From Alphaproteobacteria bacterium (GTDB lineage Bacteria; Pseudomonadota; Alphaproteobacteria; UBA828): a DNA stretch of 64,000 bases. Below, piece after piece: positions 50,975-64,000 of this stretch. The notes under the pieces were generated by a model. It searched no databases, was not told the origin of the DNA, and worked only from the letters and a program-made list of their open reading frames with translations. The position numbers and the translations under genes are program-made. Within the stretch, counting starts at the first letter, position 1, and each line of letters opens with the position of its first letter. The stretch lies in contig OZ243972.1 in assembly GCA_965214705.1 (NCBI GenBank), positions 2,432,001 through 2,496,000 on the forward strand. The letters are read 5' to 3'.

Positions 50975-50997
50975 GCTCTGCCCGCGCCGCGCGCGTT

Positions 50998-51556
50998 CTA
51001 CGCGGCCGCCTCCGCCTCGGTGCGCAGGTGCGGCGGCATCCAACGCACTTGGTCCTCGGTGCCGTAGGCGTGGAACTCAGACGGCTTACGCCGCTGCTTC
51101 AGCACCCAGGGATGCAGAATCGGCATGTTGAAATAAAGCTTCGCCGCCCAGTGGGGCCAGAGCGTGAGCGGCCAGGTGATCGTGGACCAGAGCTGCGTGT
51201 GCTCGGAGATCGGCCGCTGCCGTGCCTCCCAACGCGCGAGCACCCGCTCGATATCGTCGGATTCGCGGAGCATGTTGGCGAGCGAGAGGGCGTTCGAGAT
51301 CGCCGTGCCGCAGCCCTGGCCGAGCCCCGGCGACATGGCGTGGGCCGAATCGCCCACGATCGCCACCCGGCCCTTGCTCCAGGCGTTGAGCTTGATAGTC
51401 TCGAAGCGGTCGTAGCGGCCCTCGTCCGGCACCCGGCCGATCATCGATGCGATGTGCGGGAAGGCCTCGGACCAGACCGCCCGCGGCAGGGGGATCTGGG
51501 CCGCCTCCTCATCTCGCGCGAGCATGGTGAAGCAGAAGTAGAACACCGCGCGGCGC
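50998..51556 (-). pseudogene. 3' half of a second MHPCO-like oxygenase, 5' truncated at the integrase island
   Basis: VFYFCFTMLARD...RWMPP aligns closely with the C-terminal half of 49781..50974; similarity stops at about 51556. Confidence 0.85.
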
Positions 51557-51671
51557 ACCTGCGGTGCTAAGTATCTGACATAGGGTCGGTTTTTCTCCCG
51601 CATCTTGTTGCATCCGGACGGATCGGTCAACGCCCGGTTCCCCGGCTGCAATCGCAACCGGGAGAGAGGAC

Positions 51672-52793
51672 ATGCCCAAAACCAACCTCACCGACGCCCG
51701 CATCGGGGCGCTCAAGCCCCGCAAGACCGCCTACGACGTCCGCGACGGCAAGCTCAAGGGGTTCGGCATCCGGGTACTGCCCTCGGGCGGCAAGCGCTTC
51801 TTCGTCCACTGCCAGCATCGCGGCAAACGGGTGTGGAAGATCGTCGGAGACGCCGAGGCGATGAGCGTGATCGAGGCGCGCTCGCGCGCGAGCGGGATGC
51901 TGGCCGCGATCAGGCGGGGCGACACCGCGCCGCCCCGTCCCGAGGAGGCGCTCTTCGAGGCCGTCGCGGAGACCGTATTCCGACAACACGAGCGGGTCTG
52001 GAAGCCGCGCACGCTCGCTGTCAACCGGGGCTACCTCCGCAACCAGATCATGCCCCATTTCGCGGGGCGCAATGTCGCCGATATCGACCGGCGCGAGGTG
52101 CGCGACTGGTTCGCCTCGCTCGCCGCGACGCCGGCCGCCGCCGACAGGTCGATGCCGATCCTCTCCGTCGTCATGAAGGAGGCGGAACGGATGGGGCTGC
52201 GGCCCGAGGGCTCCAACCCCTGCCGGGGCATCCGGCGATACCGCCGCAAGGGGCGCCAGCGGTTCCTGTCGGACGACGAGATCCGGAGGCTCTCCCGGGC
52301 GCTCGCGGCGCACGCCGAGGCGTGTCCGGGGCAGGTCGCCGCGATCCGCCTGCTCCTTTTGACCGGATGCCGAAAGAGCGAGATCCTGACGCTCCGCTGG
52401 TCCGACTACCGCGAGGGCCGCCTGTTCCTGCGCGACTCCAAGACCGGACCGAGGACCGTATGGCTGTCCGCGCCCGCGCGGGCCGTCCTCGACGGCATCG
52501 CGCGGACCGGCCGTTGGGTCTTTCCGTCGCCCCATACCGGACGCGCGCACTGCGAACACTGGCTGGACAGCTTCTGGTGGCGCATCCGGGCGGAGGCCGA
52601 TCTCGGCGACGCCCGTCTTCACGATCTCCGCCATACCCATGCCAGCATCGCGCTGCGCGAGGGCGAGACCGTGCTCGCCATCGGCAGACTGCTCGGACAT
52701 GCCGATCCGGGGACCACCCTCAAGTATGCCCACCCGGCCGACGCGATGACGCGGCAGGCCGCCGAGACCATCGGCGCCCTGCTGGGGAGCTGA
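51672..52793 (+). CDS. Tyrosine integrase with N-terminal arm-binding (DUF4102-like) domain
   Basis: LTDARI...D-x-x-LKGFGIRV-x-PSG-x-K N-terminus; catalytic GCRKSE, DSKTG, HDLRH, LLGH and KYAH are intact. Confidence 0.92.
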   Translation: MPKTNLTDARIGALKPRKTAYDVRDGKLKGFGIRVLPSGGKRFFVHCQHRGKRVWKIVGDAEAMSVIEARSRASGMLAAIRRGDTAPPRPEEALFEAVAETVFRQHERVWKPRTLAVNRGYLRNQIMPHFAGRNVADIDRREVRDWFASLAATPAAADRSMPILSVVMKEAERMGLRPEGSNPCRGIRRYRRKGRQRFLSDDEIRRLSRALAAHAEACPGQVAAIRLLLLTGCRKSEILTLRWSDYREGRLFLRDSKTGPRTVWLSAPARAVLDGIARTGRWVFPSPHTGRAHCEHWLDSFWWRIRAEADLGDARLHDLRHTHASIALREGETVLAIGRLLGHADPGTTLKYAHPADAMTRQAAETIGALLGS

Positions 52794-52796
52794 GCC

Positions 52797-53948
52797 GTGC
52801 CGGCAAGGGAACGCAGGAAGCTCACCGACGACGCCGTCGCCGGTCTCCGCCCCCGCGCGCGGGAGTATGCCGTCTGGGACAAGAGCGCGCCCGGCCTCGG
52901 GGTCCGGGTCCGTCCGAGCGGCGCAAAGACCTGGGTTCTGCTGGAGCACGCCGGGGGGCGCTCCAGGCGCGTCTCCCTCGGCCCGGTCTCGACGAGGACC
53001 GTGGAGGAGGCGCGGCGGGAGTGCCATGAGCGCCGGGCAAGCCCGGAGACGGACAAGCCCGTCCGTCCGGCGCCCGCCGCCCCCCTGTTCCGCGAGTTCG
53101 TGGAGGATCCATGGAAGGAGGCGATTTTCGGGCGCTGCAAGCCCGCGACCGGGAAGTCCTATGCCTGCCTGCTCGATACCCGCCTCCTCCCCGCCTTCGG
53201 CGCGACCCCGCTCGACCGCATAACGCCTGCACAGGTCAGGCGCTGGTTCGACGCATTCAGCTGCGCCGCGCCCGGCAACGCCAACAACGCGCTCAAGCTG
53301 CTTCGCTCGATCTTCAACGTCGCCATCGCCCGCGGCCTCCTCGACAGCAACCCCGCGCAGGGCATCGCCCCCAACCGCCGGCCGCCGATGACGCGCTTCC
53401 TGTCGCGCGAGGAGATCGCGCGTCTTCACGCCGTCCTCGACGAAGAGGCCAAGCGGGGAGAGCGGTTCAGGCCGCAGGCCGACATCGTCCGCCTGCTGCT
53501 TCTCACCGGATGCCGCAGGGGAGAAATCGCCGGGCTCCGCTGGTCCGAGGTCCAGGGCGGCGCGCTGATGCTTGCCGACAGCAAGACCGGGCCGAGAAAG
53601 GTTCCCCTCAACGCCCAGGCCAGGAGCATCCTGGACCGCCGGAAGCGGGGAGAAAGCCGGTTCGTGTTCCCTTCGCCGCGCGATCCGTCGCGGCCGCGCG
53701 GGTCCGAACTCTCTCTCTGGTACCGGGTCCGCCGCAAGGCCGGCATCGAGGACTGCCGGCTTCACGACCTCAGGCATACCCATGCCAGCCACGCGGTAAT
53801 GAACGGCGTGCCGGTCCCTGTCGTCTCCCGGCTGCTTGGCCACTCCAATTCGCGCATGACGCTCCGCTACGCCCACCTCGGCGACCGCGACATCGAAGCC
53901 GCCGCCGAGAGGGTCGGAAAGGCCGTCGCCACGATCATGGGGCTTTAG
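52797..53948 (+). CDS. Second tyrosine integrase with arm-binding domain, in tandem with the first
   Basis: LTDDAV...WD-x-x-x-PGLGVRVRPSG-x-K; GCRRGE, DSKTG, HDLRH, LLGH and RYAH are intact; 3 nt after the int1 stop. Confidence 0.92.
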   Translation: MPARERRKLTDDAVAGLRPRAREYAVWDKSAPGLGVRVRPSGAKTWVLLEHAGGRSRRVSLGPVSTRTVEEARRECHERRASPETDKPVRPAPAAPLFREFVEDPWKEAIFGRCKPATGKSYACLLDTRLLPAFGATPLDRITPAQVRRWFDAFSCAAPGNANNALKLLRSIFNVAIARGLLDSNPAQGIAPNRRPPMTRFLSREEIARLHAVLDEEAKRGERFRPQADIVRLLLLTGCRRGEIAGLRWSEVQGGALMLADSKTGPRKVPLNAQARSILDRRKRGESRFVFPSPRDPSRPRGSELSLWYRVRRKAGIEDCRLHDLRHTHASHAVMNGVPVPVVSRLLGHSNSRMTLRYAHLGDRDIEAAAERVGKAVATIMGL

Positions 53949-54362: not shown

Positions 54363-54600
54363 ATTCATTTTGAACGAAGCCGCTACGCGGAGTTAGCGGC
54401 GTAGAGTTCATTCATTTCCGAGGCGTCGCGGGTGCCGTTTGTTCTGTGCGTTCGCTTCCCGGTTGCGTCAGTGGCGCTCCGCCCGTCGGGTGGCGGATCC
54501 CCAGCAGCCTCCCGATCACCAGTGGTTAGCATCGACCCCTGCGACGGACCGTCGCCGGATCGGTCCGGCGGCGCGCCGTCGCGATCCAGGGAGATCGATA

Positions 54601-55479
54601 ATGACCGGGACCGCGTGCGACACGAACACCGTCACCCCTCTTCGCCAGCGCATGGAGGAGCAGCTCCGCATCGCCAATCTGGCCGCGAGCACGTCCAAGG
54701 CCTACATCTGCGAGATCAAGAACCTGGCCAGGTACTACGACGCCTCGCCGGACGAGCTCGACGCCGAGCAGGTGCGCCAGTGGTACCTGGGGCGGATCGA
54801 CAAGGGGCTCAGTCCGGGCACGACCAACGTCTCCTTCGCCGCGCTGAACTTCCTCTACATCGACACACTCGGCTGGCCTGACCATGTCGCCGGCCTGCGC
54901 TCCCGCAAGAAGCCCGGCAAGCTGCCGCGCTACATGTCGGAGCAGGAGGTCGAGCACCTCATCCTTGCGACACCCGACCTCCGCCACCGTGCTGCCATTG
55001 TCACCGGCTATGGCGGCGGGCTCCGCATCTCCGAGACCTTGGCCATCAAGGTCGGCGACATCCTGTCGGAGAAGAAGCTGCTGCACATCCCCTCCGGCAA
55101 AGGCGGCACCGAGAGAATGGCACCGTTGCCGGACATCGTCATCCACTACTTGCGCGTCTACTACAGGAACATCTGGCCGCGTCCGACGAACTGGCTCTTC
55201 TACGGCGTCTCGCTCGACAGGCCCATCGCAACGGAGACCTTGCAGGCCGCCTTCAGGAGGGCGCGCGACATTGCCGAGCTCGACCGCAGCTACACCTTCC
55301 ATTGCCTGCGCCATTCGGCGGCGACCCATCTCCTCGAGCGCGGCGGCGATATCGAGGTGATCCGGGACATGCTCGGCCATCGAAGCGCGAACACGACCCG
55401 TCACTACGCCCGCGTCACCGGCAAGATGTTCGAGGGCCTCGACCACCCGATCTCAGGCTTCGCAGCGTTGCGCAACTGA
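54601..55479 (+). CDS. Tyrosine recombinase of the IS91-associated type
   Basis: TPLRQRMEEQL N-terminus after a GGGAG SD; GLRISE, GKGG, HCLRHS-x-ATHLLE, MLGH and HY motifs. Confidence 0.9.
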   Translation: MTGTACDTNTVTPLRQRMEEQLRIANLAASTSKAYICEIKNLARYYDASPDELDAEQVRQWYLGRIDKGLSPGTTNVSFAALNFLYIDTLGWPDHVAGLRSRKKPGKLPRYMSEQEVEHLILATPDLRHRAAIVTGYGGGLRISETLAIKVGDILSEKKLLHIPSGKGGTERMAPLPDIVIHYLRVYYRNIWPRPTNWLFYGVSLDRPIATETLQAAFRRARDIAELDRSYTFHCLRHSAATHLLERGGDIEVIRDMLGHRSANTTRHYARVTGKMFEGLDHPISGFAALRN

Positions 55480-55485
55480 CGGCGC

Positions 55486-56727
55486 GTGGAGGCCGAACGC
55501 GCGGGCGTGGCGGAGATCTTCCGCCGCGCCGGCGCCGCTTTCCGTGAGCGCCACAAAGGGCGCATCGACGCCGCCCGGCTCAAGGTCATGGGCGCCATCG
55601 AGGCGTGCCGCACCGCCGTGCTCGGCGGCCACATGTACGCCTGCGAGGGCTGCGGGCGCGAGCATCCGCTCTTCAACTCCTGCCGCAACCGCCACTGCCC
55701 CACCTGCCAGGGTCTCGCCGCCAACCTCTGGAGCGAGGAGCGCGCCGGGGACATCCTGCCGGTGCCCTACTTCCATGTGGTCTTCACCCTGCCCAAGGAG
55801 GTTGCCGCCATTGCCTTCTGCAACCGCAGGGTGGTGTTCGACATCCTCTTCCGGGCCGTCGCCGAGACCCTGCGCACCATCGCCGCCGATCCCCGCCACG
55901 GCGGCATGCGCATCGGCGGCACCGCGGTCCTCCATACCTGGGATCAGAAGCTCCGCTTCCACCCGCACCTGCACGTGGTCGTGCCCAACGCGGGCTTCGA
56001 CGTAGACAGTGGCGAGTGGAAGACGGGGAGCACCACCTTCCTCGCCCCCGTCAAGGTCCTCGGCAGCCTGTTCCGCCGCCTCTTCCTCGAGGAGCTCGCC
56101 CGCGCCCACGGCCGGGGGGACCTGGAGTTCCACGGCACCCTCGCCCACCTCGCCAATCCCGGCGAGTTCCACGCCACGCTTGCCGCCGCCCGGGCCAGGG
56201 ACTGGGTGGTCTACGCCAAGCGGCCCTTCCGCGGGCCTGAGCAGGTCTTCCGGTACCTCTCGCACTACACGCACAGGATCGCCATCTCCGACAGCCGCAT
56301 CGTCTCCTTCGACGGCGAGACGGTCTCCTTCCGCCACCGAAAGCCCAAGGCGCCGGGGCAGAGAAAGCCGCGCTACGGCATCGCCACCGTGAGCGCCGAC
56401 GAGTTCATCCGCCGCTTCCTGAGGCACGTCCTGCCGGACGGCATGCACCGCATTCGCTACTTCGGCATCCTCGCCAACGGCTGCCGCGCCAGCACGCTGG
56501 AGAGAGCACGCCAGGCTCTCGGCGCCCTCGGCTGCGCCGCCCCCGAGGGAAGCGTGGACGGCGCTCGGGCCGAGCCCGACGAAGAGCCCGAGATCGGCAC
56601 CGCGCCCGTGGCCTGCCCCCACTGCGGCGGCGTCATGCGCCTCGTCCGCGAAATCCGCCGCCGCCATGAGCCCCGCTCGACGCGCGGCCCGCCGGCGCTG
56701 CCGCCGACCCACAGGGGGAAACCGTGA
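55486..56727 (+). CDS. IS91-family (Y2 HUH) transposase with zinc-binding domain
   Basis: CRTAVLGG, NSCRNRHCPTCQ, FHVVFTLP, HTW...HPHLH (HUH), YLSHY (Y2) and terminal CPHCG motifs. Confidence 0.92.
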   Translation: MEAERAGVAEIFRRAGAAFRERHKGRIDAARLKVMGAIEACRTAVLGGHMYACEGCGREHPLFNSCRNRHCPTCQGLAANLWSEERAGDILPVPYFHVVFTLPKEVAAIAFCNRRVVFDILFRAVAETLRTIAADPRHGGMRIGGTAVLHTWDQKLRFHPHLHVVVPNAGFDVDSGEWKTGSTTFLAPVKVLGSLFRRLFLEELARAHGRGDLEFHGTLAHLANPGEFHATLAAARARDWVVYAKRPFRGPEQVFRYLSHYTHRIAISDSRIVSFDGETVSFRHRKPKAPGQRKPRYGIATVSADEFIRRFLRHVLPDGMHRIRYFGILANGCRASTLERARQALGALGCAAPEGSVDGARAEPDEEPEIGTAPVACPHCGGVMRLVREIRRRHEPRSTRGPPALPPTHRGKP

Positions 56728-56989
56728 GACGCCCGCTCGCTTCGGCCCCGCGCAACGGCGCCAAAGCGCCGACGCACGACCGAACCTGTCTCCGCTTGAG
56801 CCGGGCTGACAGCCCTCGGCTCACACCCCGCTCAGTCCTCGCAGCGTGCGCCCGCATGCCTGCCGAAAGACCGGCGCGAGCGTCGATTTTATGCGCAACT
56901 CTGCTGCCGGTGGATGCCGCCTGACGCTGACATCAGCGCACTTTCCACATAGCTCAACTTCGCCTCTCGTGGCCCGCGGCTTCGTTCAA

Positions 56990-57031
56990 AAGGGTTGGGC
57001 AGGCTCTCGAGAGAGAGCCTGCCCAACCCTT
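56990..57031. repeat. Perfect 19-bp stem hairpin with GAGA loop
   Basis: AAGGGTTGGGCAGGCTCTC-GAGA-GAGAGCCTGCCCAACCCTT. Confidence 0.9.
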
Positions 57032-57071
57032 AACCTTGAGCGTCGGCCCCTCAGACCGATAGAAGCAGTAA

Positions 57072-60000
57072 ATGTTCCTGTTCAGACATCCAGTCTTGCT
57101 GCTGCGCCGAAGCGAGGCGCTCCAGACCGCGCCGATCACGGTCGCGTTCTGGACGTTGGCTGTCATCGCTCTGACCAGCCTGCGGGATCTGCATCTTTGG
57201 GGGATGCCGCAGGTCGAGGTGGTCATCGCACGGGCGACCATGGCATGCATAGTCATCCTGGTGGGCTTGGTGGGCCTGGTTGGAATTCGATGCTTGTTTG
57301 CCTGGCGGAAGTCCGGCTCACGCGTCTCTGTCCTGAGCACAGTGGGCGGAATGCCCGGCGTGTTGTTGCTCGGTGCAGTGGCATCCTATCTGGCGATCGG
57401 CTTTGCCGTGATGGACGAGGCGGACTGGCGGCCGGGCACGGCTGAGTCACTGAGGTTTGCAGTACTCTCTTTCGGCGTGCTTGTGGCTGCCGTAGTCGGT
57501 GGCCGCGCGGTGCTGGAACGAGTCGGGGCCGACCGGTTGTTGCGGGGCGTGCTTGTCGTCCTGATTTTGAGTTGCGCCATCATTCTCGCTTCGCCGGTCC
57601 TGCGCGACCTCGGCATCCTGCCGCCTTATAGAATTCCATTCCGCCTGACCGGCGCTTTCGTCGATCCCAACGACGCCAGCTTGATCGGCAGCATGACGGT
57701 GGGACTCGCCGCGGCGTTCCTGACCAATGGCGGGCCGCGCACGCTCGGTTGGGTGGGCCTGGCCGCCGGCGTCGCCGCAAGCCTGGGGTCGGCGTCCAGA
57801 ACCGCGTTGGTCATACTCGGTGCGCTGGCGATCGTGTTCCTATTGATCCATGTCCGCAGCAAACCAAGGGCCTTCGTCCTGATTTTGGCGGCCACGGTAA
57901 TGGTCGCGATTGGAGGATTGGCCGGCGTTGCGTTCTTCTCCGGAGGCCTTTCCGAGTGGTTTAGAGCGCGGAGCGGTATCAACGACGCACTCGGGGAAAA
58001 ACTGTTCTGCGACCCTTCGCCGACCGACAGCCCTGGCACGGACTGCGCCGTCCTGCTGGCAACGAGAGACATCCTGGCCGGAGACATTGCCCTCAACTGG
58101 AGCCGCACCGTCCCCGTCAACCGCTGGCGGGGCGTGACGGTGGAAGGCCCGGAGGGACATGTCACCGGGCTGCATCTCGCGGGACTTGGATTGAACGGCC
58201 GTATCCCCCCGGATCTTGGCCGCCTGGACCGCCTCGTTTCGCTGTCCCTTGGACGCAATCGGCTCACCGGTCGCATTCCGCCCGAGCTGGGAAATCTGGC
58301 GAGCCTCAAGTATCTGGTCCTGAGCTACAACATCTTGACCGGGGCTATCCCGCCGGAGCTGGCGAACCTTGAGAACCTCAAGGAGCTGTGGCTGAGAAAC
58401 AACCGCTTGACCGGCCATGTCCCGGCCGCTCTCGCAGGGCTCGACCTGTCCGTCCTGCGTCTCTCGGGCAACGACTTCGACTCCATTCCTCCCAAAATCA
58501 ATGCCGTCGCCGACCACGATCTCGGCCGCTTCGTGCTCTGCCTGCCGCCGCCTCGAACCAGCCCCGCGTTGTTCGAGGACTGCACGACGCTGTTGGCGGT
58601 GAAGGACACGCTGGCCGGCGACGCCCCGCTCGACTGGCACGCGGCGGTCTCCATCGGCTTGTGGCAAGGCGTGACCGTGGGCGGTCCGGAAGGTCGTGTC
58701 ATCGCGCTGGATCTGTACGGGAAAGGGCTGAACGGACGCATTCCCCCGAGCCTCGGCAGGCTGGACGGCCTCGTCTCGTTGAACTTGGCCGCCAATCGGC
58801 TCACCGGTTCGATTCCGCCGGAGTTGGGACAACTCGTCGACCTGCGCGTCTTGGCCCTAGATCGCAACGCCCTGACCGGCACCGTCCCTGCGGAACTGGC
58901 ACGACTCCCCGGGCTCAGGGCCTTGTGGTTGAAAGAGAACCGCCTGACCGGCCCTGTTTCGCCGGCGCTGTTCGATGTCCCTGACCACGATCTCGGCCGC
59001 CTCGTGCTCTGCCTGCCGCCGCCTCGAACCAGCCCCGCGTTGTTCGAGGACTGCACGACGCTGCTGGCGGCGAAGGACACGCTGGCCGGCGACGCGCCGC
59101 TCGATTGGCACGCGGCGGTCCCCATCGGCTTGTGGCAAGGCGTGACCGTGGGCGGTCCGGAAGGTCGTGTCATCGCGCTGGATTTGTACGGGAAAGGGCT
59201 GAACGGACGCATTCCTCCGAGACTCAGCGGGCTGGACGGCCTCGTCTCGTTGAACTTGGCCGCCAATCGGCTCACCGGTTCGATTCCGCCGGAGTTGGGA
59301 CAACTCGTCGACCTGCGCGTCTTGGCCCTAGATCGCAACGCCCTGACCGGCACCGTCCCTGCGGAACTGGCACGACTCCCCGGGCTCAGGGCCTTGTGGT
59401 TGAAAGAGAACCGCCTGACCGGCCCTGTTTCGCCGGCGCTGTTCGATGTCCCTGACCACGATCTCGGCCGCCTCGTGCTCTGCCTGCCGCCGCCTCGAAC
59501 CAGCCCCGCGTTGTTCGAGGACTGCACGACGCTGCTGGCGGCGAAGGACACGCTGGCCGGCGACGCGCCGCTCGATTGGCACGCGGCGGTCCCCATCGGC
59601 TTGTGGCAAGGCGTGACCGTGGGCGGTCCGGAAGGTCGTGTCATCGCGCTGGATTTGTACGGGAAAGGGCTGAACGGACGCATTCCTCCGAGACTCGGCA
59701 GGCTGGACGGCCTCGTCTCGTTGAACTTGGCCGCCAATCGGCTCACCGGTTCGATTCCGCCAGAGTTGGGGAGCCTCGCCGGCTTGCGGTCCCTGGTGCT
59801 CGACGGCAATGCGCTGACCGGCGCCATTCCACCCGAGCTGGGGAAACTGACCGACCTGGAAAGGCTCGGGCTTGCCAAAAATGCCCTGATCGGCCCCATC
59901 CCACCGGAACTGGCGAAGCTGTCGAGCCTCGGGAAACTCTGGCTGAGCGGCAACCGCCTGACCGGTTTCCTCCCCCCCGAGCTGCGCGCGGTCGCCGGCA

Positions 60001-61595
60001 GGGACGCGCCCTGCCCCGCCGCTCCCGCCGACAATCCCGGTTTGCGCGCCGATTGCGCGCTCCTGCTGGCGGCGAGGGACATCCTCGCCGGCGATGCGCC
60101 GCTCGGCTGGAGCGAGGACATCCCCATCGAGATCTGGCAGGGCGTCACCGTGGGCGGCTCGCCGGAGCGGGTGACGAGGCTCGACCTGTCGAGGTCAGGT
60201 CTGAACGGGCGCATCCCGCCAGCGTTGGGCGGACTGGACAAGCTCGTTTCGCTTTGGCTCAATCGCAACCGGCTCACTGGCCCGGTGCCTCCCGAACTGG
60301 GGGAGTTGACCGACCTGGAGGTCCTGACGCTCTCCTTCAACGCCTTGAGCGGCCCGATTCCGCCGGAACTGGGGAAACTGTCGCATCTCAGGGAGTTGTG
60401 GCTGAAGCACAACCGCCTGACCGGCTCCGTGCCGCCGGAACTCGAAGGGCTGGAGAAGCTGACCTTAATACGTCTCTTTGGCAACGATCTGGAACGCCCC
60501 TATCCGCGGCGTCTCTACCGGATCGCGAGCCACGACCTGGACCTCCACGATCTGCGCCATCGTCGGTCGCTCGACGATGCAGAGGCGGCGCAGGCGGCGG
60601 ACCGCCGCATGAACCGAGATCGTCCGGATGCGGTAAGGCGCCTGTTCTGTCGACCCTCCTCCAGCGTCACTTCCGATCTGCAAGCCGACTGCGGCCTTCT
60701 GCTGGCGAACAAGGACGTCCTGGCCGGCGACGCGGCGCTTGACTGGAGCGAGGACATCCCCATCGAGTTCTGGCAGGGCGTCACCGTCGGCGGCTCGCCG
60801 AAGCGCGTGACCGCACTGGCATTGCCGCGCGCGGGACTGAACGGGCGCCTGTTCGCGGAACTCGGCGAATTGGGCGGCCTCGTCGCTCTGGACCTGAGCC
60901 ATAACCGGCTCGCCGGCCCCGTACCGCCGGAACTGGAAGGACTGGGCAATCTCTTCTTCCTGCGCCTCGCCGGCAACGACCTGAACCGCCCCTTCCCGCC
61001 GGCGCTCCACGAGATTGCCGACCATGACCTCGACGGGCCGGTTTTCTGCCGGCCGAAGAAAATCGATCCGGACCTTCTCGCCGATTGCACCCTCTTGCTG
61101 ACGGTGAGAGACAGCCTCGCCGGGGATGCGCCGCTCAACTGGCGCCGCGATGTGCCGGTCGACGACTGGCAGGGTGTCGCGGTGGATCGCTCGCGCGGCC
61201 GCGTGACGGCGCTGGACCTGACGCAAATGGGTTTGAACGGACGCATCCCCGCGGAGTTGGGGCAGCTTGCCGGACTCGCCTCCCTGCGCCTGGGCCGCAA
61301 TCGGCTTGCCGGCGACATCCCGCCCGAGCTCGGCAACCTCGCCGGTCTGCGCATGCTGGCATTGGACGGCAACCTCCTGGCCGGTTCCGTGCCGCCGGAA
61401 CTGGGCAAGCTGTCGAGGCTCACCGACCTGAGGCTGCACGGGAACCGTCTGAGCGGCCCCGCACCGCCCGCTGTGGCCGCGCTGCCAGCGTTGCGCCTGG
61501 ACGATGACGATGCGGTTGGCGAACTGCCGGCGCAGAGTCGCGGTCGGGTTCTCGACCGGAACCTGTTCTGCCAATCCTTTCCCGAAGCACTGTAA
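57072..61595 (+). CDS. O-antigen ligase/polymerase-like membrane domain fused to multiple plant-type LRR modules; 3' end cut by IS66
   Basis: About 8-9 hydrophobic segments with RLTGAFVDPND and GSASRTA motifs, then repeated LxxLxLxxNxLTGxIPPELG with Cys-pair caps; the stop TAA lies inside the IS66 end GTAAGCG. Confidence 0.8.
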   Translation: MFLFRHPVLLLRRSEALQTAPITVAFWTLAVIALTSLRDLHLWGMPQVEVVIARATMACIVILVGLVGLVGIRCLFAWRKSGSRVSVLSTVGGMPGVLLLGAVASYLAIGFAVMDEADWRPGTAESLRFAVLSFGVLVAAVVGGRAVLERVGADRLLRGVLVVLILSCAIILASPVLRDLGILPPYRIPFRLTGAFVDPNDASLIGSMTVGLAAAFLTNGGPRTLGWVGLAAGVAASLGSASRTALVILGALAIVFLLIHVRSKPRAFVLILAATVMVAIGGLAGVAFFSGGLSEWFRARSGINDALGEKLFCDPSPTDSPGTDCAVLLATRDILAGDIALNWSRTVPVNRWRGVTVEGPEGHVTGLHLAGLGLNGRIPPDLGRLDRLVSLSLGRNRLTGRIPPELGNLASLKYLVLSYNILTGAIPPELANLENLKELWLRNNRLTGHVPAALAGLDLSVLRLSGNDFDSIPPKINAVADHDLGRFVLCLPPPRTSPALFEDCTTLLAVKDTLAGDAPLDWHAAVSIGLWQGVTVGGPEGRVIALDLYGKGLNGRIPPSLGRLDGLVSLNLAANRLTGSIPPELGQLVDLRVLALDRNALTGTVPAELARLPGLRALWLKENRLTGPVSPALFDVPDHDLGRLVLCLPPPRTSPALFEDCTTLLAAKDTLAGDAPLDWHAAVPIGLWQGVTVGGPEGRVIALDLYGKGLNGRIPPRLSGLDGLVSLNLAANRLTGSIPPELGQLVDLRVLALDRNALTGTVPAELARLPGLRALWLKENRLTGPVSPALFDVPDHDLGRLVLCLPPPRTSPALFEDCTTLLAAKDTLAGDAPLDWHAAVPIGLWQGVTVGGPEGRVIALDLYGKGLNGRIPPRLGRLDGLVSLNLAANRLTGSIPPELGSLAGLRSLVLDGNALTGAIPPELGKLTDLERLGLAKNALIGPIPPELAKLSSLGKLWLSGNRLTGFLPPELRAVAGRDAPCPAAPADNPGLRADCALLLAARDILAGDAPLGWSEDIPIEIWQGVTVGGSPERVTRLDLSRSGLNGRIPPALGGLDKLVSLWLNRNRLTGPVPPELGELTDLEVLTLSFNALSGPIPPELGKLSHLRELWLKHNRLTGSVPPELEGLEKLTLIRLFGNDLERPYPRRLYRIASHDLDLHDLRHRRSLDDAEAAQAADRRMNRDRPDAVRRLFCRPSSSVTSDLQADCGLLLANKDVLAGDAALDWSEDIPIEFWQGVTVGGSPKRVTALALPRAGLNGRLFAELGELGGLVALDLSHNRLAGPVPPELEGLGNLFFLRLAGNDLNRPFPPALHEIADHDLDGPVFCRPKKIDPDLLADCTLLLTVRDSLAGDAPLNWRRDVPVDDWQGVAVDRSRGRVTALDLTQMGLNGRIPAELGQLAGLASLRLGRNRLAGDIPPELGNLAGLRMLALDGNLLAGSVPPELGKLSRLTDLRLHGNRLSGPAPPAVAALPALRLDDDDAVGELPAQSRGRVLDRNLFCQSFPEAL
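58512..59770 (+). repeat. 471-bp near-identical tandem repeat (about 2.7 copies, 157-aa period) inside the LRR gene
   Basis: GACCACGATCTCGGCCGC starts at 58512, 58983 and 59454; intervening DNA is nearly identical. Confidence 0.93.
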
Positions 61596-61671
61596 GCGGT
61601 ACGCAGACCCCATACCGGAATCTGGCTTGACTACGACGGGGATTTCTTGAGGAGCGCCGTGAGCGCGCGAG

Positions 61672-63387
61672 TCATTTTGCCTCGGGCTGGAAGTTCCACG
61701 GCAGAAGCTCCTGGATGCCCGACTGCGGGTGGCCCTTGGCGATCTTCTCGAGCGTGCTCCGCATCCAGGCGTAGGGCTCGACGCCGTTCATCTTGCAGGT
61801 CTCGATCAGCGAGGCGATGCGGGCCCAGGCTTGCGCACCCTCGTCGTTGCCGGCGAAGAGCGCGTTCTTGGCGGTGAGCTTCAGCGGCCGGATTCGGTTT
61901 TCCACCAGGTTCGAGTCGATCTCGACACGACCGTCGTGCAGGAACTCCAGCAGCCCGTCCCACTGGTTGGCGATATAGGTCAGCTTCTCGCCGAGACGCG
62001 AGCGCGGTGAGACGCGCGAGCGCTGCTCGTCGAGCCAGACACCGAAGGTGTTCACGATCGGCGCCGACTCCTCCCAACGGATCGCGCGGCGCTCCGCCGG
62101 CGGCTTGCCCCGGATCTTCTTCTCGATCGCATAGAGCTTCGCGATCCGATTCAGACCGGCCAGCGCGATCGGCGATGCGCTCGAGTCGTATACCTCTTTC
62201 AGCTTCCGTCTTACATGCGCCCAACAGAGGGCCCGCGTCACAGGGCCTTCCGCCCGGTCCGGCCGCGCCAGGATGTTGTGGCCCGAGTAGCCGTCGAGCT
62301 GCACCGTCCCCGAAAAGCCCTCCATAAGCTCGGCGCCATACTTGCCGCCGCGGCCGGGCGCATAGCGATAGACGACGCCCGGCGGGTCCGTGCCGCTCCA
62401 GTGGCGCTCGTCACGCACAAGGGTCCACATGTAGCCCGTCTTCGTCTTGCCCCGGCCCGGGTCGAGAACGCGGATCGTGGTCTCGTCCAGACCCAGGTGA
62501 TCCGACTTCTTCAGCTCATCCTCCAGGCAAGCGACCACGGGGCGCAGGTGAAACGACGCCTGGCCCACCCACGTCGCCAGCGTCGCACGGTGAACCTCGA
62601 TCCCCGAGCGCTCGTAGATCTGCGACTGGCGATAGAGCGGGCAATGATCGCCGTACTTCGCGATCAGCACCTGCGCCAGAAGAGCCTCGGTGGGAAGGCC
62701 GCCCTCGACCAGAGCGGCCGGCGCCGGCGACTGCACCACCCCGCCCCCCTTGCACTTGTTGCAGGCGTAGCGGGGGCGCACGGTCTCGATGACGGTGAAC
62801 TTCGCCGGCTCATAGTCCAGCCGCTCGCTGCGGTCCTCGCCGATCTTCGTCATCTCGCCGCAGCCGCAGGGGCACATGATCGTGTCCGGCTCGATCACCT
62901 CCTCGCGCCGGTCGACCTGGGGCCCGAAGCGCACCCCGCTGCGCGACCCCCGGGAAGAGCGCCGCCGGCGCTTGCCGCCAGCCCCCTCGTCCTGCTCCTG
63001 GTCATCTGCCTCGGGCCGACCGCCGGCTTCAGCGATCGCCGCCCAAAACTCCTCGAACGTAAGCTGGCGCTCGTCCTCGCCGAGCTTCTCGGAGCGCGGA
63101 CCGAACAGCGCCTTCCTGAGCTCCTTGTTGAGATGCTCAAGCCGGCTGATCTGCTCCGCGCTCTGCGCGTTCTCGGCCTCCAGCCGTGCCGCCCGCGCTT
63201 CCGCCGTCTGCCTCGCCGCCTCCGCCGCGCCGCGTGCCTGCTCCGCTTCGCATAGGGCTGCTTCCGTCGCCCGGCGCGCCGCGCGCTCGTCGTCAAGCTC
63301 CGCATGCAGGGCCGCCAGCGCCGCCGAAACCACCGCAGGCGACGGCGAACCGGCGCTGCTGAGGGGTGAGGGCGTGACCTTCGGCAT
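61672..63387 (-). CDS. tnpC: IS66 family transposase TnpC
   Basis: LFGPRSEK, CPCGCG, KYGDHCPLYRQ, DET, DGYSG, CWAHVRRK and IDSNLVENRIRP motifs. Confidence 0.93.
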   Translation of the reverse strand: MPKVTPSPLSSAGSPSPAVVSAALAALHAELDDERAARRATEAALCEAEQARGAAEAARQTAEARAARLEAENAQSAEQISRLEHLNKELRKALFGPRSEKLGEDERQLTFEEFWAAIAEAGGRPEADDQEQDEGAGGKRRRRSSRGSRSGVRFGPQVDRREEVIEPDTIMCPCGCGEMTKIGEDRSERLDYEPAKFTVIETVRPRYACNKCKGGGVVQSPAPAALVEGGLPTEALLAQVLIAKYGDHCPLYRQSQIYERSGIEVHRATLATWVGQASFHLRPVVACLEDELKKSDHLGLDETTIRVLDPGRGKTKTGYMWTLVRDERHWSGTDPPGVVYRYAPGRGGKYGAELMEGFSGTVQLDGYSGHNILARPDRAEGPVTRALCWAHVRRKLKEVYDSSASPIALAGLNRIAKLYAIEKKIRGKPPAERRAIRWEESAPIVNTFGVWLDEQRSRVSPRSRLGEKLTYIANQWDGLLEFLHDGRVEIDSNLVENRIRPLKLTAKNALFAGNDEGAQAWARIASLIETCKMNGVEPYAWMRSTLEKIAKGHPQSGIQELLPWNFQPEAK

Positions 63388-63480
63388 GGGCCACCCCTTA
63401 ATCCGATTCGCCAATGCATGACCAGGGAAAAGTGCAGGCGGGACCGCGACCGAAATCTGCGGCCCCGCCTGCGTGCCGCC

Positions 63481-63831
63481 TCACTCCGCCGCCAGCGGGC
63501 GGCGAACCGGGCGGGCCTTCACCCGGCGCCAGTCCAGACCCTCGAAGAGGGCCTCGAACTGGCCCTTCGTAAGGCGCATCACACCATCCTCGATCCGAGG
63601 CCAGGCGAAGCGGCCCTGCTCCAGACGCTTGTAGGTCATCACCAGACCGCTGCCGTCCCACGCAAGGAGCTTGAGCCTGTCGCCGCGGCGCGAGCGGAAG
63701 ATCACGATCACCCCGGAATAGATATCGAGGTCCAGCTCCCCCGCCGCCGTCGCCGCAAGCGCGTCGTGGCCGCGACGAAAATCAACCGGCCGCGTCGCCA
63801 ACACGATGCGAAGCGAGGGGGCCGCGATCAT
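63481..63831 (-). CDS. tnpB: IS66 accessory protein TnpB
   Basis: PVDFRRGHDAL, FRSRRGDRLKLLAWDGSG and KRLEQGRFAWP motifs. Confidence 0.93.
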   Translation of the reverse strand: MIAAPSLRIVLATRPVDFRRGHDALAATAAGELDLDIYSGVIVIFRSRRGDRLKLLAWDGSGLVMTYKRLEQGRFAWPRIEDGVMRLTKGQFEALFEGLDWRRVKARPVRRPLAAE

Positions 63832-64000
63832 GACGACGCCCGGCCCAGGCCCGAGGCCACCGCAACAATCCGATCGACCGCGCTCTCCACCGGAAGGCGA
63901 ACGACCACGCCTAGCGCCTCGATCGCCACCGTCCGCTCGGACGTCACGCTATCAACCACCACGGGAACAAATGGCGGTGCAGAGCCACCAATCCGAGCGC
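63828..64000 (-). CDS. tnpA: 3' end of IS66 accessory protein TnpA (partial)
   Basis: Reads ...PPFVPVVVD...VVVRLP...RIVAVASGLGRASS*, with ATGA overlap to tnpB. Confidence 0.75.
   Translation of the reverse strand, partial: ARIGGSAPPFVPVVVDSVTSERTVAIEALGVVVRLPVESAVDRIVAVASGLGRASS

What the first reader, a model, noticed from the sequence alone, without database searches (positions are those of the whole stretch)
57072..61595. O-antigen ligase/polymerase-like membrane enzyme carrying a large plant-type LRR array where its periplasmic loop should be
Seen: about 300 aa of hydrophobic helices with RLTGAFVDPND and GSASRTA, then seven complete modules and the start of an eighth. Each module has a two-Cys cap (C-x10-13-DC..LL..(K/R)D.LAGD..L.W...W.GV) and 24-aa plant-specific LRRs. 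Established: Wzy_C/WaaL-type GT-C enzymes have R-x-x-G-x-F-x-N/D-P-N and S-x-SR motifs, then a large periplasmic loop, then an H-N motif and final helices; plant-type LRRs bind proteins and are enriched in some host-associated bacteria. Inference: the LRR array begins right where that loop begins, so this may be a glycosyltransferase with a modular protein-recognition insert (targeted glycosylation), or a membrane scaffold repurposed to display LRRs. I know of no characterised example. This is the best candidate for a new system in the window.
Basis: partly seen in the sequence, partly recalled or inferred. Interest (0 to 1): 0.85.

Follow-up and report, generated by a model that had tools for sequence, protein, structure and literature searches.

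The report
Broken glycan ligase carrying plant-type LRRs
This is a broken copy of an undescribed kind of bacterial membrane sugar-chain enzyme that carries a string of plant-receptor-like binding domains in its outward-facing loop; it travels between distant bacteria on a mobile island with the genes that make the sugar chain.

Summary
ORF 57072-61595 is the 5' three quarters of a WaaL/Wzy_C-fold membrane glycan transferase. Its periplasmic catalytic loop holds tandem, capped, plant-type LRR mini-domains: seven plus the start of an eighth here, nine in the whole gene. Beyond the IS66 element the frame continues with two more modules, then the conserved Arg, GHG and His-Asn motifs and three final helices, and this part scores above Pfam's Wzy_C cut-off. 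This copy is dead. It has an IS66 insertion with an 8-bp target duplication, an 11-bp duplication that shifts the frame, and an IS91-type element 33 bp upstream. An intact 2031-aa paralogue lies elsewhere in the genome. A model of a one-module homologue matches the WaaL structure (Z 22.4) and plant receptor ectodomains. The gene sits on an integrase-bearing island with three GT4 transferases, a Wzx flippase and an amidotransferase. No copy was found in 40 related genomes, but copies occur in genomes whose 16S is only 79-81% identical. Amino-acid changes between paralogues cluster on the LRR concave face. The function is inferred, not shown. The scan found this family before on other DNA (e1-4578625). 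None of the four searches of the held papers aimed at it listed such a protein.

The parts
51672..52790 (+). Island integrase 1 (373 aa, tyrosine recombinase with Arm-DNA-binding domain)
   Evidence: Pfam Phage_integrase 65.9 bits and Arm-DNA-bind_3. The same pair precedes the paralogous copies in L008 and L009. The DNA is 96.8-97.3% identical to the other islands.
52797..53945 (+). Island integrase 2 (383 aa)
   Evidence: Pfam Phage_integrase 80.3 bits. It forms a tandem pair with integrase 1 in three islands of this genome.
54369..57038 (+). IS91-type element (Xer-like recombinase 54439-55476 and Y2 transposase 55486-56724), inserted between the integrases and the gene and ending 33 bp before the ATG
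   Evidence: Pfam Phage_integrase, Y2_Tnp and Zn_Tnp_IS91. Other copies in the genome are 97.9-99.9% identical, and the element is missing at this place in the intact island L008.
57072..61595 (+). The reported ORF: the 5' 1507 codons of the LRR-bearing Wzy_C/WaaL-type gene (a pseudogene here)
   Evidence: It is 84% identical over aa 1-330 to the intact paralogue.
57072..58004 (+). N-terminal membrane domain, about nine helices, carrying RLTGAFVDPND (57642-57674) and GSASRTA (57786-57806)
   Evidence: Wzy_C profile positions 3-71 at aa 230-301. The model of homologue P0103 shows nine long helices before the insert. R of RLTG, G, P and S of SxSR are nearly invariant in the 76-sequence alignment A2.
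58008..61591 (+). LRR array: modules 1-7 starting at nt 58008, 58539, 59010, 59481, 60012, 60648 and 61047, and the start of module 8 at 61569
   Evidence: Cap and Cys positions. Pfam LRR families. The module model matches plant LRR ectodomains at Z 16-19.5 and TMt 0.65-0.71.
58512..59770 (+). 471-bp tandem repeat, 2.7 copies at 98% identity (modules 2-4), showing recent module duplication
   Evidence: Tandem Repeats Finder.
61584..61591 (.). Left copy of the 8-bp target duplication GAAGCACT of the IS66 insertion (the right copy is at window-equivalent 64344-64351)
   Evidence: The intact paralogues read straight through ...CCCGAAGCACTGCCGCGCC....
61592..64000 (-). IS66 copy 1 (2752 bp, ending at window-equivalent 64343): tnpC 61675-63414, tnpB 63484-63831
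   Evidence: 31 hits in the genome cover all 2409 bases that lie in the window at 99% identity or more.

Best explanation
Shown: the ORF is the 5' part of a pseudogenised member of an undescribed subfamily of WaaL/Wzy_C-fold (GT-C, subclass B) membrane enzymes. In this subfamily the start of the long loop that carries the catalytic-type residues is expanded by tandem, individually capped, plant-type LRR mini-domains: nine in the whole gene, and about one to nine in homologues by a rough motif count. The loop lies after the ninth helix and before the loop helix with the conserved Arg and the His-Asn motif. The gene is the first cargo gene of a mobile island of about 20 kb. The island order is two tyrosine integrases, LRR-Wzy_C, three GT4 glycosyltransferases, a Wzx-type flippase and an AsnB-type amidotransferase. 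The island is present in four diverged copies in this genome and also occurs in very distant bacteria. The window's copy is dead: an IS66 insertion at codon 1507, an 11-bp tandem duplication about 50 nt further on, an IS91-type element 33 bp upstream, and a second IS66 in the next GT4 gene. Inferred mechanism for the intact form: the GT4s build a lipid-diphosphate-linked oligosaccharide, the amidotransferase modifies it, and Wzx flips it. The Wzy_C domain then transfers it in the periplasm, using the conserved Arg/Arg/His set as a ligase-type enzyme (WaaL- or PglL-like) rather than as a polymerase. The LRR array, anchored in the membrane at both ends, acts as a binding platform of changeable specificity that holds the acceptor or a partner, most likely a periplasmic or envelope protein. 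I put the architecture, the pseudogene status and the island context at about 0.95. I put 'active glycan transferase with a periplasmic binding array' at about 0.7, and 'ligase or O-oligosaccharyltransferase acting on LRR-bound proteins' at about 0.4.
For: Continuation and breaks. Wzy_C is split at profile position 71/81. The intact paralogue P0096 scores 36.6 bits against a cut-off of 31.7, in two stretches. Short relatives match the profile contiguously (P0109 43.0 bits, P0106 50.1 bits). Fold: the model of the one-module homologue P0103 (pLDDT 84.8, pTM 0.79) matches WaaL 7tpj_B at Z 22.4, rmsd 4.3, with 341 residues aligned over model residues 15-627, ahead of RodA/FtsW at Z 13.5-14.1. Catalytic-type residues: R188, R504, H546-N547 and E555 (P0103 numbering) are 90% or more conserved in 76 sequences. 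The HN motif is found in 79 of 88 LRR-bearing clusters, and at least 5 of the 9 misses are C-terminally truncated. R504 aligns with E. coli WaaL R288 in a weak local hhalign match. PMC10920833 (section 11 read) gives two Args plus one His as the O-ligase set, places them on the outer face, and reports Asp/Glu in place of His in polymerases of the same clan. Context: GT4 x3, a Wzx-like flippase and AsnB follow the gene. The same order is seen in the intact paralogue's island, and GT4 genes follow the gene in five loci from other genomes. Binding-array reading: between the window copy and the intact paralogue, LRR concave-face positions have dN/dS 1.50 (Nd 53.1, Sd 11.9, 120 codons). Scaffold positions have 0.20 (Nd 19, Sd 38, 360 codons), Fisher p 6e-8. 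Concave positions are also the most variable over 1278 units. Mobility: no copy in 40 relatives; five other host genomes have 79-81% 16S identity to this genome but carry a protein 66-73% identical.
Against: No activity, acceptor or ligand is known for any member. No NCBIfam model reaches its cut-off: TIGR03097 scores 22-29 bits against 188, and TfpM 13-21 bits against 600. Sequence searches of the PDB found nothing, even with a profile. The equivalence of the conserved residues to the WaaL triad therefore rests on spacing and on one low-probability (4.6%) local alignment. The PDB list returned no solved Wzy polymerase, so the WaaL hit cannot separate ligase from polymerase. A cassette with a Wzx flippase and no other Wzy-type gene would fit a polymerase equally well. 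The periplasmic placement is by homology; my own hydropathy and charge counts were unreliable. For the second paralogue pair the concave/scaffold contrast is weaker (1.05 against 0.28, p 0.07). Both compared copies are pseudogenes, and gene conversion between modules could add to the pattern. The copy in the window itself cannot function.
Confidence: 0.6

Rival explanations
1. It is a Wzy-type polymerase. The enzyme polymerises the cassette's repeat unit, and the double-anchored LRR array replaces the missing co-polymerase or scaffold, guiding the chain or reaching toward the outer membrane.
For: The cassette holds a Wzx flippase and several GT4s but no other Wzy-type gene and no Wzz, PCP or export gene among the ORFs I scanned. 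Pfam Wzy_C covers polymerases as well as ligases. Module number varies widely (about 1 to 9 caps by a rough motif count), as a spacer might. [LRR-Wzy_C + GT4] units are duplicated together in L005 and L006, as in linkage-specific polymerase/GT pairs.
Against: The conserved acceptor-side residue is His, as in O-ligases. PMC10920833 reports Asp/Glu at that position in polymerases of the same clan. The nearest named models, all far below their cut-offs, are O-glycosylation ligases and O-oligosaccharyltransferases, not polymerases. Change concentrated on the concave faces is not expected of a passive spacer.
Confidence: 0.25
2. It is an alternative O-antigen (LPS) ligase brought by the island. It attaches the island's glycan to lipid A-core, and the LRR array binds host envelope proteins only to localise or regulate the enzyme.
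For: The best structural match is WaaL, and the Arg/Arg/His set is conserved. Mobile elements that change surface glycans are known; for example a phage-acquired Wzy in P. aeruginosa (PMC4815439, search listing and abstract only).
Against: The hosts are very different (16S 79-81% identical to this genome; records titled Nitrospirales, Acidobacteriota, Gemmatimonadota and Pseudomonadales). Their lipid A-core acceptors probably differ, which sits badly with a transferable core-specific ligase. Several copies per genome (up to 5) are not expected of a core ligase.
Confidence: 0.1
3. It is a catalytically inert membrane scaffold that merely displays LRR modules in the periplasm, acting as a receptor or adhesin-like sensor.
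For: The array makes up about 80% of the protein. The same loop position accepts a different insert in close relatives: an unnamed domain of about 110 residues that is also repeated in giant proteins (P0095, P0099, P0100).
Against: The Arg, GxG, His-Asn and GEAG residues are conserved at 90% or more between LRR-bearing and LRR-less relatives. HN is present in 79 of 88 LRR-bearing clusters. The membrane core has dN/dS 0.37-0.53. The gene is always followed by glycosyltransferase genes.
Confidence: 0.06
4. It is a chance fusion, a mis-assembly, or a secreted or type III LRR effector read together with an unrelated membrane gene.
For: NCBIfam's best hits for the whole ORF are the XopAC, XopAE and XopL models. 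The region is full of insertion sequences.
Against: Those hits cover only LRR stretches and lie far below their cut-offs (166 against 450, 158 against 600, 74 against 500). The same continuous architecture is seen in 88 clusters (including the query) on contigs of up to 6.7 Mb and in four copies in this genome. The two halves of one Pfam domain flank the array, and one fold model joins them.
Confidence: 0.01

Closest known systems
WaaL O-antigen ligase (Cupriavidus metallidurans, PDB 7TPJ/7TPG; CAZy GT121; Pfam Wzy_C PF04932)
   Same: It shares the 12-helix GT-C(B) fold (Z 22.4, 341 residues aligned). It has a long loop near the C-terminus carrying the conserved Arg and His, a further conserved Arg in the loop after helix 5, and a Pfam Wzy_C match above cut-off in the intact paralogue.
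   Different: Identity in the structural alignment is 18%, and no sequence-level match to any PDB chain was found. The loop carries about 175 to more than 1500 residues of capped LRR modules. The gene lies in a mobile Wzx/GT4 cassette and not in a core-LPS locus. There are several copies per genome.
PglL / PilO / TfpM-type O-oligosaccharyltransferases (Wzy_C-family enzymes that glycosylate proteins)
   Same: They share the Wzy_C domain and the His-Asn...Glu-x-Gly type motif (the motif's presence in these enzymes is recalled, not tested here). They work with a short GT set and a flippase. The cassette's GT4s score best, though below cut-off, on the PglJ model.
   Different: TfpM scores only 13-21 bits against a cut-off of 600. 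Known O-OTases have no built-in protein-binding repeat array. No acceptor is known here.
Plant LRR receptor ectodomains (SERK/BAK1, PGIP, ERL1, PEPR1)
   Same: The 24-residue plant-specific repeat and the N-terminal cap helix superpose on them: BAK1/SERK TMt 0.65-0.71 at 34-38% identity, and ERL1, PEPR1 and PGIP at Z 18.6-19.5. Variability is concentrated on the concave face.
   Different: Each module has only 3-6 repeats, and the modules are strung in tandem inside a loop of a bacterial membrane enzyme. Pfam's LRRNT_2 cap model did not report the caps. There is no kinase or single-pass anchor.
TIGR03097 putative O-glycosylation ligase, TIGR03108 amidotransferase and TIGR03088 GT4 of XrtA/PEP-CTERM exopolysaccharide loci
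   Same: The gene content is of the same kind, and these are the best-scoring named models for three cassette components.
   Different: All scores are below their cut-offs (29 against 188, 532 against 817, 84-93 against 409). I did not look for an exosortase or PEP-CTERM gene near the island.
Bacterial proteins with plant-specific LRRs (Xanthomonas XopAC/XopAE/XopL, Leptospira LIC_11051)
   Same: They have the same LRR class.
   Different: Those are secreted or injected proteins. This one is a polytopic inner-membrane enzyme, and all of those models score below cut-off.

Membership tests
Wzy_C / O-antigen ligase family (Pfam PF04932) | Whole-protein score at or above Pfam's gathering cut-off (31.7 bits) | tested here: met
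   The window ORF alone scores 20.2 bits and does not pass. The 3' fragment beyond IS66 scores 34.8 bits, or 37.7 bits for the last 135 aa alone. The intact paralogue P0096 scores 36.6 bits in two stretches. 74 of 88 clusters list PF04932.
WaaL-type GT-C(B) fold | Twelve transmembrane helices with a long periplasmic loop near the C-terminus, superposable on a solved O-antigen ligase | tested here: met
   The model of homologue P0103 (pLDDT 84.8) has nine long helices before the insert and three after it. 7tpj_B matches at Z 22.4, rmsd 4.3, with 341 of 403 residues aligned. This was tested on a homologue 72% identical to the intact paralogue's membrane parts, not on the broken window protein itself.
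WaaL-type GT-C(B) fold | Two phosphate-binding Args and an acceptor-activating His on the outer face (R191, R265, H313 in 7TPG, per PMC10920833) | tested here: inconclusive
   R188, R504 and H546 are 90% or more conserved. R504 aligns with E. coli WaaL R288 only in a local hhalign match of 4.6% probability; the role of R288 is recalled. The Arg-to-His spacing is 42 residues here, against 48-49 in WaaL. No residue-level superposition was available.
WaaL-type GT-C(B) fold | Transfer of a glycan from undecaprenyl diphosphate to an acceptor | not testable with these tools
   This needs biochemistry.
Plant-specific LRR class | 24-residue unit LxxLxLxxNxL(T/S)GxIPxxLGxLxx | tested here: met
   Position-wise consensus over 1278 distinct units: L97, L97, L98, N100 (fixed by the search anchor), L98, T64, G100 (fixed by the search anchor), I/V93, P98, E77, L94, G56, L83.
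Plant-specific LRR class | N-terminal cap of the LRRNT_2 type | tested here: inconclusive
   Pfam did not report PF08263 at E up to 1. However, the model aligns from its cap helix (residues 313-318 onward) to the first residues of PGIP, SERK and ERL1 ectodomains, and each cap has a Cys pair.
PglL/TfpM O-oligosaccharyltransferases (NCBIfam NF058641) | Score at or above the model's cut-off (600 bits) | tested here: not met
   12.9-21 bits.
TIGR03097 exosortase-associated O-glycosylation ligase | Score at or above the cut-off (188.1 bits) | tested here: not met
   22.2-29 bits, covering the C-terminal motif region only.
XopAC/XopAE/XopL type III effectors | Score at or above the cut-offs (450/600/500 bits) with a match beyond the LRR part | tested here: not met
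   166.3, 157.6 and 73.5 bits, in LRR stretches only.
IS66 family insertion (the breaking element) | Terminal inverted repeats starting GTAAGCG, an 8-bp target duplication, and tnpB/tnpC genes | tested here: met
   Ends at 61592 and window-equivalent 64343, with target duplication GAAGCACT. Near-identical copies occur genome-wide. The GTAAGCG end as a family trait is recalled. Pfam was not run on this element; the IS66-transposase hit is on a different, diverged ORF downstream (L001:15162-16451).

The most novel reading that the evidence does not exclude
The family may be a horizontally mobile, self-contained protein-glycosylation (or envelope-targeting) cassette. Its transferase would carry its own array of receptor-like LRR modules, which evolve by module duplication and by change on the binding face. 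That would make it the first oligosaccharyltransferase with a built-in, modular and rapidly changing acceptor-recognition device. A bolder variant is that the Ser/Thr/Pro-rich cap loops of the modules are themselves the acceptors, so that the enzyme decorates its own periplasmic array with the island's glycan.
Probability: 0.25. Interest if true: 0.85.

Novelty: new variant of a known kind. Interest (0 to 1): 0.66.

Why it matters
WaaL, Wzy and PglL-type enzymes are central to bacterial surface glycans and to glycoconjugate engineering. How they choose acceptors is still poorly understood. A natural version that carries a string of receptor-type binding domains inside the catalytic loop would be a new way to couple recognition to glycan transfer, and a possible template for programmable glycosylation. 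It also shows capped plant-type LRR ectodomains working in the bacterial periplasm. These domains spread between phyla on an integrase island and diversify like immune receptors. The same loop accepts another repeat-type insert in close relatives, which suggests a general 'display loop' in this enzyme clade. The window's own copy is a pseudogene, so the biology has to be studied on the intact paralogue or on homologues.

Tried and rejected
1. Sequence searches of PDB chains with the LRR-less homologue P0095 and with the 76-sequence profile A2 gave no meaningful hit at E up to 10. Only the fold search found WaaL.
2. The first fold, of the two-module homologue P0019 with 37 close relatives, had pLDDT 40-55 in the membrane part and was not used for fold search.
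3. PADLOC gave no defence-system hit for the cassette proteins, apart from a weak QueC-like match of the amidotransferase.
4. A viral-contig scan with the N-terminal 330 aa found no relative.
5. Sequencing runs: no RNA holder was listed, names were coded, and no reads were laid.
6. My own hydropathy and positive-inside counts were unreliable: helix calls differed between homologues. I do not use them.
7. dN/dS between the L003 and L004 genes had too few differences to read.
8. NCBIfam named no family above its cut-off for the enzyme.
9. hhalign of A2 against E. coli K-12 WaaL gave only a 24-column local match.
10. The chance-fusion and type III effector readings were rejected (see rivals).
One Pfam call had out-of-range coordinates and was corrected.
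Full report
1. THE OBSERVATION

The + strand ORF runs from ATG 57072 to the stop at 61593-61595 and encodes 1507 aa. Its codon-position GC pattern (0.70/0.49/0.80) is that of a real gene in this 68% GC DNA. The long antisense ORFs over the same stretch are by-products of the composition.

The first 300 or so residues are hydrophobic helices. They contain RLTGAFVDPND (aa 191-201) and GSASRTA (aa 239-245). From aa 312 on there are seven two-Cys caps, at aa 313, 490, 647, 804, 981, 1193 and 1326. Each cap is followed by three to six 24-residue repeats. An eighth cap starts at C1500. Pfam scores the repeats at E 2e-65 (LRR_1) and 8e-53 (LRR_8). Modules 2-4 form a 471-bp tandem repeat with 98% identity between copies.

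2. WHERE THE ORF ENDS, AND WHAT LIES BEYOND

The stop codon belongs to the end of an IS66 element that begins at 61592 with GTAAGCGG. I laid the whole genome in the script box and found the element's other end at window-equivalent 64343. The element is 2752 bp long and is flanked by a perfect 8-bp target duplication, GAAGCACT.

Directly after it the gene continues (locus L001, whose coordinates are window coordinates minus 61000). First comes the rest of cap 8. In this copy the cap carries an 11-bp tandem duplication (GGGACGTGCTG twice) that shifts the frame. Two paralogues in the same genome read ...RDVLAGDVQLNW... without the duplication. Behind the shift, a 548-codon open frame holds the rest of module 8 and all of module 9. 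It then reads ...GRPLLWRLGFEKAMEAPVFGHGL...GPHNLYLTLLGEAG... followed by three hydrophobic helices and a natural stop. This piece matches Pfam Wzy_C profile positions 81-149 at 34.8 bits, or 37.7 bits for the last 135 aa alone, against a cut-off of 31.7. The window ORF matches positions 3-71 at 20.2 bits.

A second, identical IS66 copy lies in inverted orientation 28 bp after the stop. It sits inside the first codons of the next gene, with target duplication ACTCCAGA. An IS91-type element (54369-57038) ends 33 bp before the ATG, and it is absent at this place in the intact paralogous island. The window's copy is therefore a pseudogene with at least two disabling lesions, plus a likely cut-off from its upstream region.

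3. HOMOLOGUES

A search with aa 1-330 found 88 clusters at E up to 0.001 among the 8000 candidates scored, counting the query itself. Only proteins of 828-2638 aa were searched. All 88 list LRR families, 74 of 88 list PF04932, and most are about 2000 aa long. The sequences I read (P0005, P0016, P0017, P0019) have the same order: membrane domain, caps with LRRs, then the Arg/GHG/HN part and three helices. A rough cap-motif count over the 88 gives 1 to 9 caps per protein.

This genome holds four copies. One is the window's. One is an intact 2031-aa gene with nine modules (P0096), scoring 36.6 bits on Wzy_C in two stretches. One is broken by two IS66 copies, and one by an element carrying IS21-type-looking genes (named by recall; no family search was run on them) plus an IS66.

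An exhaustive search of 1.84 billion representatives, queried with the LRR-less relative P0095, found 683 proteins at E up to 0.001. Among the best 150, 53 carry both signature motifs by regular expression. Of these 53, 43 have no LRR unit and are mostly 400-500 aa long, and 8 have at least two units. Short relatives match the Wzy_C profile without a gap (P0109 positions 6-148, 43.0 bits; P0106 positions 2-149, 50.1 bits).

I built a quick tree on 423 core columns of 76 proteins, chosen by me from the hit lists for being full length. The multi-module LRR proteins form one clade with 100% SH-aLRT support. Their sister is a pair whose loop holds a different insert of about 110 residues that Pfam did not name in P0095. 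All 14 LRR-bearing rows lie on one side of a 97% branch that holds 32 rows. At least two gains or losses are forced. That other loop domain also recurs many times in giant proteins of up to 5552 aa; in one relative (P0100) part of it weakly resembles an Ig-type Pfam model. The loop therefore appears to be a general insertion point for repeat-type extracytoplasmic domains.

4. FOLD

A second model used the one-module homologue P0103, which is 72% identical to the intact paralogue P0096 in both membrane parts, with 76 diverse relatives. It reached pLDDT 84.8 and pTM 0.79, and shows nine long helices before the insert and three after it.

Aligned against 48,161 PDB representatives, its best match is the O-antigen ligase WaaL (7tpj_B): Z 22.4, rmsd 4.3 Å, 341 of 403 residues aligned, spanning model residues 15-627. 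The match therefore covers both sides of the insert. The SEDS polymerases RodA and FtsW follow at Z 13.5-14.1.

The module matches plant receptor ectodomains from their N-terminal cap onward: ERL1 Z 19.5, PEPR1 19.4, PGIP 18.6. Foldseek gives BAK1/SERK TMt 0.65-0.71 at 34-38% identity. Pfam's LRRNT_2 model did not report the caps.

5. CATALYTIC-TYPE RESIDUES AND TOPOLOGY

In the 76-sequence alignment the positions conserved at 90% or more are R188, G191, P196, S239, R504, P519, G522, G524, H546, N547, G554, E555, G557 and P560 (P0103 numbering). In the window's gene these correspond to R191 and, in the 3' piece, to R418, the GHG motif, H460-N461 and E469 (and reading of the sequence).

PMC10920833 (abstract, passages and section 11 read) makes several relevant statements. 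[quoted passage not shown] The conserved residues of all these families lie on the outer face. Polymerases of the same clan carry Asp or Glu where the ligase has His.

The family here keeps Arg/Arg/His with similar spacing: 42 residues from Arg to His, against 48-49 in WaaL. R504 aligns with R288 of E. coli K-12 WaaL in a local hhalign match of low probability; that R288 is a functional Arg is recalled. In the model, the LRR array lies in the same inter-helix segment as R504 and H546, with no membrane helix between them. By homology it is therefore periplasmic. The paired cysteines of each cap fit an oxidising compartment. I could not obtain an independent topology prediction; my own charge counts were unreliable.

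6. GENOMIC CONTEXT

In the window's own island, downstream of the gene (the first GT4 broken by the second IS66), lie three paralogous GT4 glycosyltransferases. Next comes a 440-aa polytopic protein. It is 52% identical to a neighbour's protein that hits Polysacc_synt, and its nearest Atlas clusters are Wzx/MOP flippases. Then comes a convergent AsnB-type amidotransferase, whose best NCBIfam model is the XrtA/PEP-CTERM amidotransferase (532 bits, below the 817 cut-off). A further GT4 follows it. The intact paralogue's island shows the same order up to the amidotransferase; I did not examine it beyond that. The GT4s score best, below cut-off, on PglJ and on the XrtA-system GT model.

Upstream lie two tandem tyrosine integrases (51672-53945). 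The whole unit recurs at 92-97% DNA identity in the other copies. It lies beside a truncated duplicate of a FAD-monooxygenase gene.

In other genomes the gene is likewise followed by GT4 genes. Some carry [LRR-Wzy_C + GT4] units in tandem, and in two the gene is fused to the GT4. Integrases lie upstream in two loci (L003, L004).

No copy was found in 40 related genomes, 20 of them of the same genus. The five other host genomes share only 79-81% 16S identity with this one, yet carry proteins 66-73% identical over the N-terminal domain, with one to five matches per genome. Their records are titled Nitrospirales, Vicinamibacterales, Terriglobia, Gemmatimonadota and Pseudomonadales. This is the pattern of a horizontally mobile island. 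No relative was found in viral contigs with this query, and PADLOC recognised no defence system.

7. EVOLUTION OF THE ARRAY

Over 1278 distinct repeat units, the most variable positions are 2, 3, 5, 7 and 8 of LxxLxLxxN, together with positions 21 and 23. Positions 2-8 lie on the concave face in LRR structures, by established knowledge.

Between the window copy and the intact paralogue, concave positions show dN/dS 1.50 (Nd 53.1, Sd 11.9, 120 codons). The other repeat positions show 0.20 (Nd 19, Sd 38, 360 codons), Fisher p 6e-8. The membrane core shows 0.53. For the third copy against the intact one the values are 1.05, 0.28 (p 0.07) and 0.37.

There are caveats. Two of the three genes are pseudogenes, the pairs are not independent, only the 24 strictly matching units of P0096 were classed, and gene conversion is not excluded. 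Even so, the pattern is the one seen in LRR receptors whose binding face diversifies. It argues that the modules bind something and that the paralogues differ in what they bind.

8. WHAT IT MOST LIKELY DOES

Shown: the architecture, the fold, conservation of the ligase-type residues, the glycan-gene cassette, mobility, and the death of this copy.

Inferred: the intact enzyme takes the cassette's flipped lipid-diphosphate glycan and transfers it in the periplasm. The His at the acceptor-side position and the nearest, sub-threshold named models favour a ligase or O-oligosaccharyltransferase over a polymerase. LRR modules are typical protein binders, so an acceptor or partner protein held by the array is my preferred reading (about 0.4). 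A polymerase whose array acts as a scaffold (about 0.25) and an alternative LPS ligase (about 0.1) remain open. An inert display scaffold is unlikely (about 0.06).

9. NOVELTY

Four searches of the held library were aimed at this architecture. Their terms were: O-antigen ligase / leucine-rich repeat / periplasmic loop; plant-specific LRR / bacteria / horizontal gene transfer / LRRNT; Wzy_C / LRR; and O-antigen polymerase / oligosaccharyltransferase / leucine-rich repeat / LRR domain / Wzy. Their listings showed no paper describing an LRR array in a Wzy_C/WaaL-type enzyme (listings and abstracts only). Most subscription journals are not in that library.

This scan had already met the family on other DNA: e1-4578625, a homologue with eight modules fused to a GT4, judged an undescribed family. 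The present work agrees with that note. It adds the split-domain proof across an IS, the WaaL fold match, the island with integrases, the cross-phylum 16S contrast, the alternative loop insert, and the concave-face substitution pattern.

I rate it a new variant of a known kind of enzyme. Interest is moderate to high for the family and lower for this particular broken copy.

Noticed in passing
window 61592-64000 and window-equivalent 66039-68790 (L001:5039-7790): Two identical 2752-bp IS66 copies in inverted orientation bracket the 1.7-kb 3' end of the gene. Each has its own 8-bp target duplication (GAAGCACT, ACTCCAGA), so they are two separate insertions and not a composite that moved as one. 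Genome-wide, 31 hits cover the 2409 bases tested at 99% identity or more. Three of these lie inside LRR-Wzy_C genes, and a 97.7% variant lies in a fourth copy. These genes make up only about 0.3% of the genome. Either the genes tolerate insertions or the element prefers this kind of target.
   Followed up: partly
window 54369-57038: An IS91-type element with its own Xer-like recombinase sits 33 bp upstream of the gene's ATG. Its end includes the GC-rich hairpin at about 56990-57035. It is the same element type that earlier notes on this genome describe (e1-6677704).
   Followed up: partly
window 49784-51657: A 219-aa fragment (51001-51657, - strand) repeats the C-terminal part of the neighbouring FAD-monooxygenase gene (49784-51043). 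It lies right beside the first island integrase, which suggests the island integrated into the 3' end of that gene. The attachment sites were not mapped.
   Followed up: no
L007:9938-11677 (P0095); P0099, P0100, P0142, P0207: Close relatives of the enzyme carry, at the same loop position, one to several copies of a different domain of about 110 residues. Pfam did not name it in P0095; in P0100 part of it weakly resembles an Ig-type model. The same domain is repeated up to about 25 times in giant proteins of up to 5552 aa.
   Followed up: partly
L005:3792-13612 and L006:2209-13591: In two other genomes, [LRR-Wzy_C + GT4] gene pairs are repeated in tandem with different module numbers (about 2000-aa and 780-864-aa forms side by side). 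In L003 and L004 the enzyme is fused in frame to the following GT4.
   Followed up: partly
window 58008-61591 (cap loops): The loops between the two cysteines of each cap are rich in Pro, Ser, Thr and Ala (for example LPPPRTSPALFED, DPSPTDSPGTD, RPSSSVTSDLQAD). This composition is reminiscent of bacterial O-glycosylation sites (recalled). It raises the idea that the array could itself be glycosylated.
   Followed up: no
L001:15162-16451 and L001:16802-18208: Beyond the amidotransferase lie another IS66-family transposase gene of a different, diverged type and a fourth GT4 gene with a lower third-position GC than the cassette genes. The right-hand end of the island is therefore unclear.
   Followed up: no
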